From assembly GCF_009914755.1 (NCBI RefSeq), contig NC_060936.1: a stretch of DNA of 64,000 nucleotides; one strand, 5' to 3'. The DNA comes from the human T2T-CHM13v2.0 reference genome, Homo sapiens. The position numbers and the translations under genes were made by a program. Position 1 is the first letter of the stretch. Each line of letters opens with the position of its first letter. Below the pieces are notes generated by a model that was not told the origin of the DNA, did not search any database, and worked only from the letters and a program-made list of their open reading frames with translations. Positions 49,130 to 50,255 of the stretch are shown here, one piece after another.

Positions 49130-50255
49130 TGTTTCCAAAAGCAAAAAAATTAGCAAGTATTATAAATAGTAAAACTTTTTTGCAGTCATTTCAGGTTCTT
49201 AACAACCCACCAGAAGAAGCACCAAGAAAACCTAGCATATTTCCTAAGACAGTGAAAACTGAGCCCCTTCTGGCCTAAAAATAAATATTAAATAGTTCTT
49301 TAATATTTAAATAGATGTGTTTGAAAATATTTAATATTTAAATGGCTGGAGTAGAAGTAAAATTAAACCAATGTTTGTATTGTTACAGAAGAAAAGAGAA
49401 AAAAAAATAGGGCAAATGAAAAAGGAAGACAATGTCCAGATCAAAGAGTTAAATATGGACACAAGAAATGCAAGCAGCTGTAAAGTGAAAGATCAAGAAC
49501 CACTCTGAGGGCTCAGAAGTAGAAACTAGTGAACTCCAAAAGCAACCCTCAAAGAAAAACAAAAAAGCAAGAAAGATTTTAAGTATCCAACTTACCTGAG
49601 TCAAAAAAGGGAAGAAGAAAAGAAGTAGCTCTGAAGATGTAGAATGCCTCGCTCCCAGAGCAAAAGTAAAGAAAATCACTCAGAAAGACAACATTAAAAA
49701 AAGAAGCCTCAGAAGTTTCCAAAGAAAACACAGCTATAACTTTCAGGTTAGGATTAAATGAATTAAAGTTATGTTTCACCCATTTCACAGCCACAAATAT
49801 CTTTTTTGTTTGTTTTTTTGAGACGGAGTCTCGCTCTGTCACCCAAGCTGGAGTGCAGTGGCGCGATCTTGGCTCACTGCAACCTCTGCCTCCCGGGTTC
49901 AACCTATTCTCTTGCCTCAGCCTCCTGAGTAGCTGGGACTACAGGCGCCCACCACCACGCCCGGCTGATTTTTGTATTTTTAGTAGAGACAGTCTTTACC
50001 ATATTGGCCAGGCTGGTCTCGAACTCCTGACGTTATGATCCTCCTGCCTCAGCACAAATAACTGGCTTTTTTATTTCTCAAGACTTAGAAGTCCTTGAAG
50101 AACAAAAGGATGCTGGAAATATAAAAGATGGTTCTCCCTTAAAACTAAAAAGGATTCATAAGACAAAAGATAAAGAGAGACATAAAATTGGAGAAGAGGT
50201 TATATTGAGAGTACTATCAAAGTAAGTACACAGTATAAATTCTATTGTCATTGGC
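49130..50255 (+). pseudogene. Intron-containing LARP7 fragment (three consecutive exon homologues at 49195-~49280, 49389-49733, 50083-50221)
   Basis: Translations [122 protein letters not shown] match the LARP7 region after RRM1; AG acceptors at 49193-4, 49387-8, 50081-2 and GTAAGT donor at 50222; frameshifts and stop codons present; outer boundaries approximate. Confidence 0.88.
49802..50052 (-). mobile_element. 5'-truncated AluS inside the LARP7-derived intron
   Basis: Antisense Alu, TSD cacaaata at 49792-49799 and 50053-50060. Confidence 0.9.

What the first reader, a model, noticed from the sequence alone, without database searches (positions are those of the whole stretch)
49130..50255. 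Intron-retaining LARP7 fragment in a PUS7L intron: possible retrocopy of the miR-302/367 host transcript
Seen: three consecutive LARP7 exon homologues in the correct order, separated by short intron-like spacers with AG acceptors and a GTAAGT donor, so this is not a spliced-mRNA processed pseudogene; recognisable homology ends within a few tens of nt after the RVLSK|gtaagt junction, and I see no miR-302 seed complement (AAGCACTTA) in the following ~400 nt. Known: the LARP7 intron following this exon hosts the miR-302/367 cluster on the opposite strand, with miR-367 nearest the exon, and the host RNA is abundant in pluripotent cells where L1 is active. Inference: an antisense host RNA running through these exons would keep LARP7 introns, so the 3' portion of that transcript (terminal exon or the fragment left after Drosha cropping) copied by L1 would give this footprint. 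Alternatives are a small DNA-level duplication or a retrocopy of unspliced LARP7 pre-mRNA. I could not identify a convincing poly(A)/TSD; candidates are the T-runs at 49030-49037 and 49118-49125.
Basis: partly seen in the sequence, partly recalled or inferred. Interest (0 to 1): 0.85.

Follow-up and report, generated by a model that had tools for sequence, protein, structure and literature searches.

The report
Retrocopy of Drosha-cut miR-302/367 host RNA
This stretch in a PUS7L intron is an ancient reverse-transcribed copy of the RNA tail left after the enzyme Drosha cuts out the last microRNA (miR-367) of the miR-302/367 host transcript, which runs antisense through LARP7, and two sister copies elsewhere in the genome start at the same cut site.

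Summary
Window 49137-50261 is colinear, introns included, with the LARP7 locus on chr4 (74-80% identity). An Alu at 49800-52 interrupts it.

The right end (50261) maps to L005:1216, the nucleotide after the 3' end of miR-367-3p on the antisense strand. That is the Drosha 3' cut.

The element extends further left than reported. Window 49040-49110 matches the poly(A)-signal region of the antisense host gene MIR302CHG. The T8 run at 49030-49037 precedes it, and I read this as a poly(A) remnant on the minus strand.

Two more copies end at the same point:
- chr3: about 72% identity.
- chr7: 98% identity, starts exactly at L005:1216, and has an A-tail at the host poly(A) site and a perfect 17-nt target-site duplication.

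No copy runs into the hairpin.

Spliced MIR302CHG retrocopies are in print (Pan & Lin 2020). My chr16 and chr6 hits are their T1S1 and T2S5. The unspliced, Drosha-started class and the PUS7L copy were not found in the literature I could search.

This is a new variant of a known kind, of moderate to high interest. No target-site duplication is detectable for chr12, and its age (roughly early placental mammals) is inferred only from divergence.

The parts
49030..49037 (-). T8 on the + strand, read as the remnant of the poly(A) tail of the minus-sense retrocopy
   Evidence: locates the run. It lies directly next to the block that matches the host poly(A)-signal region.
49038..49110 (-). 3' end of the host gene's terminal exon (E3), which is the antisense of LARP7 intron 4. 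The poly(A) signal is mutated: TGTATT at 49055-49060 against TTTATT in the parent.
   Evidence: Local alignment of window 49040-49110 to L005:61-125, score 48; 7 of 1000 shuffles reach it. The parent's AATAAA lies at L005:81-76 on the minus strand.
49111..49136 (-). Poorly assignable junction stretch. About 190 nt of the parent (roughly L005:126-319, most of the antisense of LARP7 exon 5 and the E3 splice acceptor) are missing here.
   Evidence: The boundaries of the deletion are approximate.
49137..49194 (-). Copy of the 3' part of LARP7 intron 5. On the minus strand this is host-gene intron just upstream of the E3 acceptor's pyrimidine tract.
49195..49288 (+). LARP7 exon-6-like block (protein residues about 185-215). 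It is a decayed reading frame.
49289..49388 (+). Copy of the LARP7 intron between exon-6-like and exon-7-like blocks
49389..49733 (+). LARP7 exon-7-like block (lysine-rich region), with stops and frameshifts
49734..50082 (+). Copy of the next LARP7 intron, interrupted by an Alu on the minus strand (49800-50052) with TSD CACAAATA at 49792-49799 and 50053-50060
   Evidence: many Alu hits, plus 49769-49795 aligning to the parent intron. SRP/Alu-type hit on the minus strand; the TSD.
50083..50221 (+). LARP7 exon-8-like block ending ...RVLSK
50222..50261 (-). 40 nt of LARP7 intron 8, which is the 3' strand of the lower stem of pri-miR-367. Its last base is the 5' end of the copied RNA and aligns to L005:1216, one nt past miR-367-3p.
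50000..50144 (-). Two alternative PUS7L exons from the hub table (50000-50112 and 50056-50144). Their acceptors lie in the retrocopy and their donors in the Alu or at its edge.
   Evidence: AC below and CT above each exon on the + strand, which is GT-AG on the minus strand.

Best explanation
Window 49030-50261, read on the minus strand, is an old L1-type retrocopy of one particular RNA. That RNA is the polyadenylated, unspliced 3' fragment of the miR-302/367 primary transcript (host gene MIR302CHG, antisense to LARP7) that remains after the Microprocessor (Drosha) cuts out the last hairpin, pre-miR-367.

The host RNA runs antisense through LARP7 intron 8, exon 8, intron 7, exon 7, intron 6, exon 6, intron 5, exon 5 and into intron 4. 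These are not introns for the host RNA, so a copy of it looks like an intron-retaining LARP7 fragment.

Proposed order of events:
1. Drosha's 3' cut created the RNA's 5' end.
2. The normal host poly(A) site created its 3' end.
3. A reverse transcriptase, most likely L1 ORF2p, primed on the tail and ran to the RNA's 5' end.
4. The cDNA landed in a PUS7L intron in the same orientation as PUS7L.
5. The copy then lost about 190 nt, took up an Alu, lost its AATAAA and decayed.
6. Part of it now serves as alternative PUS7L exons.

Shown here: colinearity, both end points, the sister copies, and the tail and TSD on chr7. Inferred: that Drosha made the end, that L1 made the chr12 copy, and the age.
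For: (1) 5' end.
- Rfam places pre-miR-367 at L005:1214-1281 on the minus strand.
- The 22-nt miR-367-3p printed in PMC7816280 ends at L005:1217 in the fold (hairpin -43.9 kcal/mol, z -7).
- About 12 bp of lower stem lie below that point, which is the usual distance of a Drosha cut from the stem base (recalled rule).
- The chr7 copy begins at L005:1216, directly after its TSD.
- The chr12 and chr3 copies end in the same shared motif aligned to L005:1215-1217. No significant homology follows: 257 and 261 of 1000 shuffles reach the score.
- So 3 of 3 unspliced copies end at the cut, and 0 of 3 enter the hairpin.

(2) 3' end.
- The spliced chr6 copy defines the terminal exon as L005:308 to 62, with a pyrimidine tract plus AG acceptor and AATAAA at 81-76.
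- chr7 ends at about L005:66 with an A-tail. chr6 ends at 62 with T7. chr12 ends at about 59-61 with T8.

(3) Retrotransposition hallmarks on chr7: a 17-nt exact TSD and an A-tail.

(4) The flanks of the chr12, chr3 and chr7 copies are unrelated.

(5) The published host gene span is hg38 chr4:112,646,720-112,648,703 on the minus strand, 1,984 bp (PMC8159989 passages). This fits L005 about 58-2041.

(6) MIR302CHG is a proven source of L1 retrocopies (PMC7692494).
Against: - No TSD can be shown for the chr12 copy. The best candidate is 9 nt, and 800 of 2000 shuffles do as well.
- The tail is only T8. The match of the tail-side block is modest (7 of 1000 shuffles, AT-rich sequence).
- The last 7 nt of the chr12 and chr3 copies differ from today's chr4 at 2 positions and need a 4-5 nt indel. 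MAFFT offered a second alignment there. The end is therefore placed within about 2 nt, not to the base, for these two copies.
- The chr3 copy has lost its 3' end: it abuts a truncated repeat. It cannot show a tail.
- chr12 and chr3 could share history rather than being independent.
- Drosha as the nuclease is inferred from position only.
- The one other pri-miRNA tested (MIR17HG) has no such copy.
Confidence: 0.85

Rival explanations
1. Retrocopy of the uncropped pri-miR-302/367 RNA that was 5'-truncated because the reverse transcriptase stalled at the stable pre-miR-367 hairpin, rather than because Drosha had cut the RNA.
For: The hairpin is very stable (-43.9 kcal/mol, z -7). 5' truncation is common in L1-mediated insertions (recalled). 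For chr12 and chr3 the end is known only to about 2 nt.
Against: A structural stall should occur at or before the base of the stem, about L005:1197. All 3 copies carry the whole 3' strand of the lower stem (L005:1197-1216) and stop at the cut. chr7 stops exactly at the nucleotide after miR-367-3p. Three truncations at one position are not expected from stalling inside a helix.
Confidence: 0.07
2. Retrocopy of unspliced LARP7 pre-mRNA (sense strand), with its 3' end near the hairpin and variable 5' truncation.
For: The shared right end with different left ends on chr12 and chr3 looks superficially like a common 3' end with 5' truncation.
Against: No A-rich tract lies at the right end of any copy. 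On chr7 the A-tail and TSD show that the RNA was antisense to LARP7. On chr12 the left end coincides with the antisense gene's poly(A) region and a T-run. Three consecutive short introns would all have to be retained.
Confidence: 0.02
3. DNA-level (segmental or repair-templated) duplication of a piece of the LARP7 locus.
For: Introns are retained. No TSD is visible on chr12.
Against: Both ends coincide with RNA processing sites of the antisense transcript. Three dispersed copies share one end but have no flanking homology. The chr7 copy has a tail and TSD.
Confidence: 0.02
4. The chr12 and chr3 copies are not independent insertions. One was copied from the other or from a lost intermediate, so only two Drosha-end events (one old, and chr7) are documented.
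For: The two copies share several states against chr4, including the 3-nt insertion and the terminal motif. I had no outgroup to polarise these.
Against: Their flanks are unrelated and their ends coincide with the parent RNA's end. A secondary copy of a genomic insert would not reproduce that without carrying flank. The pairwise distances fit a star (branches 0.14, 0.147 and 0.115).
Confidence: 0.15

Closest known systems
MIR302CHG retrocopies of Pan & Lin 2020 (Sci Rep, PMC7692494), types T1 (E1-E302-E3) and T2 (E1-E3)
   Same: Same parent gene, same poly(A) end, same presumed L1 mechanism, and the same cellular setting (pluripotent cells). My chr16 hit is their T1S1 (IQCK intron, Alu-interrupted). 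My chr6 hit is their T2S5.
   Different: Their copies are spliced and start at the transcription start in E1. The PUS7L copy and its chr3 and chr7 sisters lack E1, keep host-gene intron sequence, and start at the Drosha cut after pre-miR-367. PUS7L and the chromosome 12, 3, 7 and 8 accessions do not occur in their text or in the one supplementary file held. I did not see their figures.
mir-373 and mir-498 precursor retrocopies (same paper)
   Same: [quoted passage not shown] This is the same idea of a processing-derived end.
   Different: Those copies are the hairpin itself with A-tracts attached to the precursor's end. Here the copy is the downstream flank fragment with the gene's normal poly(A) site, and the hairpin is absent.
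Classical processed pseudogenes and 5'-truncated L1-mediated retrocopies
   Same: Poly(A)-primed reverse transcription and dispersed insertion. TSDs are seen on chr7.
   Different: The template is not a capped, spliced mRNA. The 5' end is a fixed endonucleolytic site shared by 3 copies, not a random truncation point. Intron sequence of the parent is retained.
LARP7 processed pseudogene
   Same: Contains LARP7 exon sequence.
   Different: LARP7 introns are retained and the tail is on the opposite strand. The LARP7 resemblance is a by-product of the antisense overlap.

Membership tests
L1-mediated retrocopy | Ends of the insert coincide with the ends of an RNA | tested here: met
   The 3' end lies at the host poly(A) region. 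The 5' end lies at the Drosha cut.
L1-mediated retrocopy | Poly(A) tract at the 3' end of the RNA-sense strand | tested here: met
   chr12 has only a T8 remnant at 49030-49037. chr7 has an A-tail and chr6 has T7.
L1-mediated retrocopy | Target-site duplications | tested here: inconclusive
   None is detectable on chr12 (800 of 2000 shuffles match the best candidate). The chr7 sister has a 17-nt exact TSD.
L1-mediated retrocopy | No homology of flanks to the parent locus or to other copies | tested here: met
Spliced MIR302CHG retrocopy (T1/T2 of Pan & Lin) | Exon E1 joined to E3 (with or without E302), intron removed | tested here: not met
   The chr12 copy has no E1 and carries host intron sequence from L005:1216 down to about 320. 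The chr6 copy shows what the spliced form looks like.
LARP7 processed pseudogene | LARP7 exons joined without introns, with an A-tail on the LARP7 sense strand | tested here: not met
   Both spacers align to LARP7 introns. There is no A-tract at the right end.
Drosha 3' cleavage product as template | The 5' end is the nucleotide after the 3p arm of the pre-miRNA, and the hairpin is absent | tested here: met
   Exact on chr7. Within about 2 nt on chr12 and chr3. No mir-367 hit in L001, L003 or window 48000-52000.
Drosha 3' cleavage product as template | The end depends on DROSHA/DGCR8 and carries a 5'-monophosphate | not testable with these tools
   Needs RNA data or experiments.

The most novel reading that the evidence does not exclude
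Retrocopies whose 5' ends sit on Drosha cut sites form a general, overlooked class. They would be a genomic fossil record of Microprocessor cleavage, able to map ancestral cut sites and non-miRNA Drosha substrates. In this particular case, the cropped, polyadenylated 3' fragment of pri-miR-302/367 would be a long-lived RNA in germline or early-embryo cells. It is fully complementary to LARP7 exons 5-8. It would have been abundant enough to be copied at least three times over roughly 90 million years, and so might act as an antisense partner of LARP7.
Probability: 0.2. Interest if true: 0.8.

Novelty: new variant of a known kind. Interest (0 to 1): 0.6.

Why it matters
The finding explains an odd-looking 'intron-retaining LARP7 fragment' fully and simply.

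It also gives natural, germline-fixed evidence for three points about the RNA left downstream of a Drosha cut:
- It can be polyadenylated at the gene's normal site.
- It can stay unspliced. The chr3 copy keeps the E3 acceptor.
- It can survive 5'-3' decay long enough to meet the L1 machinery, repeatedly in evolution.

The finding adds three human copies of a new type (chr12, chr3, chr7), and one further spliced copy (chr8), to the two human MIR302CHG retrocopies in print.

It suggests a simple genome-wide screen: look for retrocopy 5' ends that coincide with pre-miRNA 3' ends.

Locally, the insert plus its Alu supplies splice sites for alternative PUS7L exons.

Tried and rejected
- PDB search with the exon-8-like peptide gave no hit. 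This says nothing against homology. The DNA alignment covers this block. From recall, that part of LARP7 may be absent from the solved chains.
- TSD search on chr12 gave nothing above chance.
- I looked for the missing 3' part of the chr3 copy beyond the 1.37-kb repeat that abuts it. There is none (960 of 1000 shuffles do as well). Other copies of that repeat continue past the junction, so the repeat is truncated there. The chr3 3' end was probably lost in a later rearrangement, but this is unresolved.
- The chr7 internal junction (L005:974 joined to 182) was checked as a possible splice. There is no GT-AG in any register and no microhomology, so I treat it as a deletion.
- The right-end alignment of chr12 and chr3 is ambiguous between two gap placements. 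Both put the end at L005:1215-1217.
- Generality. The 1.3 kb downstream of miR-92a-1 in MIR17HG has no other copy in this genome: 1 of 1 match is itself. The Rfam mir-302 model finds only the chr4 cluster. The miR-371-373 cluster was not located and not tested.
- I first misread the ruler and thought the hub's exon coordinates were shifted by one. One search shows they are correct.
- Barroso-delJesus 2008 is not held, so the position of the annotated alternative exon E2 inside the copied span is unknown to me.
- One script call returned nothing and was rerun.

Full report
**What is there.** The window is human chr12 (hub note). A search of the same genome confirms that window 49130-49790 matches chr4:115955320-115955918 at E 1.2e-110 and 74% identity, and also chr3:148278601-148279190 at 69%.

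The chr4 locus is LARP7. L005:131-295 translates to a peptide 55 of 55 identical to PDB 4wkr_A residues 130-184, 'La-related protein 7'. The first exon-like frame of the window hits LARP7 residues 181-210.

blastn of window 47500-52000 against 20 kb of chr4 gives three colinear blocks:
- 49137-49762 against L005:320-918, 74.1% over 641 columns.
- 49769-49795 against L005:969-995.
- 50065-50255 against L005:1010-1205, 79.9%.

Many Alu hits cover 49797-50053. Mapped through the alignment, the LARP7 exon-like blocks are 49195-49288, 49389-49733 and 50083-50221. The spacers between them align to the LARP7 introns. The Alu (49800-50052, minus strand) has its own 8-nt TSD.

**Where the homology ends on the right.** Rfam places pre-miR-367 at L005:1214-1281 on the minus strand and four mir-302 hairpins at 1344-1892. 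It finds none in the chr12 or chr3 loci (alignment).
- The minus-strand fold of L005:1300-1195 is a strong hairpin (-43.9 kcal/mol, z -7).
- The 22-nt miR-367-3p, as printed in PMC7816280 (passages), ends at L005:1217. About 12 bp of lower stem lie below it. The rule that Drosha cuts about 11 bp from the stem base is recalled.
- The chr12 copy ends at window 50261, in a motif it shares with the chr3 copy. This motif aligns to L005:1215-1217 under either of two gap placements.
- The last 40 nt inside both copies are significantly similar to the parent (0 of 1000 shuffles). The 139 nt beyond are not (257 and 261 of 1000).

**Sister copies.** A search with L005:100-1420 found 16 matches from 9 candidates. 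blastn of the fetched loci against 40 kb of chr4 and direct reading give the following.

(a) chr7, L033:4997-5360, about 98% identical, in antisense orientation.
- It starts with the nucleotide that follows miR-367-3p (L005:1216) and runs to L005:974.
- It then jumps to L005:182 and ends near L005:66, 10 nt after AATAAA (L005:81-76, minus strand), in an A-run.
- It is flanked by a perfect 17-nt TSD (L033:4980-4996 and 5361-5377).
- This is a textbook L1-type insertion whose template began exactly at the Drosha 3' cut.

(b) chr3, L006:5484-6404, 72% identical, matching L005:200-1216.
- It has the same right end.
- It keeps the pyrimidine tract and AG of the host gene's last acceptor, so it is unspliced.
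- Its left end abuts a truncated 1.37-kb multicopy repeat, and nothing related lies beyond that repeat. Its tail is therefore lost.

(c) chr6, L034:4490-4812, 96% identical.
- It consists of T7, then L005:62-308, joined to L005:1969-2037 with a GT donor and AG acceptor on the minus strand.
- This is the spliced host RNA. It defines the terminal exon, its acceptor and its poly(A) site.

(d) chr16 and chr8 carry the terminal exon. chr8 also matches E1 (6 of 1000 shuffles).

**The left end on chr12.** With the terminal exon defined, window 49040-49110 aligns to L005:61-125, the poly(A)-signal region (score 48; 7 of 1000 shuffles reach it).
- The block is preceded by the T8 run at 49030-49037.
- The signal itself is now AATACA on the minus strand.
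- Between 49110 and 49137 about 190 nt of the parent are missing.
- The element is therefore 49030-50261, with RNA sense on the minus strand. That is also the strand of PUS7L.
- I could not find a TSD. This is expected at the measured divergence.

**Interpretation.** The copied RNA ran from the Drosha 3' cut after pre-miR-367 to the normal poly(A) site of MIR302CHG. The published span of that gene is hg38 chr4:112,646,720-112,648,703 on the minus strand, 1,984 bp (PMC8159989 passages). This agrees with L005 about 58-2041.

This RNA is antisense to LARP7 exons 5-8, so it keeps what are introns for LARP7. It has no 5' splice site of its own, so it stays unspliced.

Three of three unspliced copies end at the cut and none enters the hairpin. 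If 5' ends were spread evenly over a roughly 2-kb transcript, one copy landing in a 5-nt window has a chance of about 0.25%. That figure is my own rough estimate.

A stall of the reverse transcriptase at the hairpin is the main rival. All copies include the whole 3' strand of the lower stem and stop at the cut, not at the stem base. Sense-strand and DNA-level explanations fail on the chr7 tail and TSD, on the chr12 T-run next to the antisense poly(A) region, and on the unrelated flanks.

**Age.** K2P distances are as follows:

| Pair | K2P |
|---|---|
| chr4-chr12 | 0.254 |
| chr4-chr3 | 0.261 |
| chr12-chr3 | 0.286 |
| chr4-chr7 | 0.017-0.035 |
| chr4-chr6 | 0.039 |

- Solving the three old distances as a star gives branches of 0.14 (chr12), 0.147 (chr3) and 0.115 (chr4).
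- Against a recalled human-lineage neutral divergence of roughly 0.15-0.17 since the common ancestor with rodents, the chr12 and chr3 copies date to about early placental mammals.
- chr7 dates to within apes or Old World primates.
- No other genome was available to check these ages.

**What is known.** Pan & Lin 2020 (PMC7692494) describe spliced MIR302CHG retrocopies. I read the abstract, outline, passages found by term, and passages of the one supplementary table file. I did not see the figures or MSA files.
- In human these are T1S1 (IQCK intron, chr16, Alu-interrupted) and T2S5 (chr6). They match my chr16 and chr6 hits.
- For mir-373/498 precursor copies the authors suggest that Drosha made the 5' end.
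- 'PUS7L', 'unspliced', and the accessions of chromosomes 12, 3, 7 and 8 do not occur in the text or that file.
- In the held library, 4 papers contain both 'Drosha' and 'retrocop...' and only this one is relevant. Searches for MIR302CHG and LARP7 pseudogene names added nothing.
- Subscription papers are not covered, and Barroso-delJesus 2008 was not held.

I therefore rate the Drosha-started, unspliced class as a new variant of a known kind.

**Limits.** Drosha's role and L1's role on chr12 are inferred. The end is known to about 2 nt for the two old copies. The independence of chr12 and chr3 is likely but unproven. One test for the same phenomenon at MIR17HG was negative.

Noticed in passing
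window 50000-50112 and 50056-50144 (minus strand): The two alternative PUS7L exons in the hub table are built from the retrocopy and its Alu. Both acceptors lie in the antisense of the LARP7 exon-8-like block. The donors lie in the Alu (below 50000) or at its edge (below 50056). All have GT-AG.
   Followed up: partly
L036:4972-5299 (chr8:130324972-130325299): An old copy (about 69-75% identity) of the MIR302CHG terminal exon, preceded by a match to exon E1 (6 of 1000 shuffles). It looks like a spliced E1-E3 retrocopy. It is not listed for human in the Pan & Lin supplementary table that I could search.
   Followed up: partly
L033:5239/5240 (chr7 copy): The young chr7 copy lacks 791 nt of the parent (L005:183-973). 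The junction has neither GT-AG nor microhomology. Whether it is a deletion at or after insertion, or a template jump, is undecided.
   Followed up: partly
L006:4116-5484 (chr3): A GC-rich multicopy repeat of about 1.37 kb with internal tandem units abuts the chr3 copy and is itself truncated at the junction. Its family was not identified, and how the junction arose is unexplained.
   Followed up: partly
L005:309-340 (chr4, LARP7 intron 5): The A-rich run at the start of this LARP7 intron is, on the other strand, the pyrimidine tract and AG of the MIR302CHG terminal-exon acceptor. One sequence serves both overlapping genes.
   Followed up: yes
L035:4926-5465 (chr16, IQCK intron): The known T1S1 retrocopy. 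A 21-nt stretch just before the terminal-exon part matches the 5' edge of pre-miR-302a (L005:1604-1584). This fits the E302 exon described by Pan & Lin. An Alu splits the terminal exon.
   Followed up: partly
window 51749-51809 (minus strand): A weak Rfam hit to mir-302_2 (23 bits against a gathering score of 70, E 0.18), 1.5 kb from the copy. I take it as chance.
   Followed up: no
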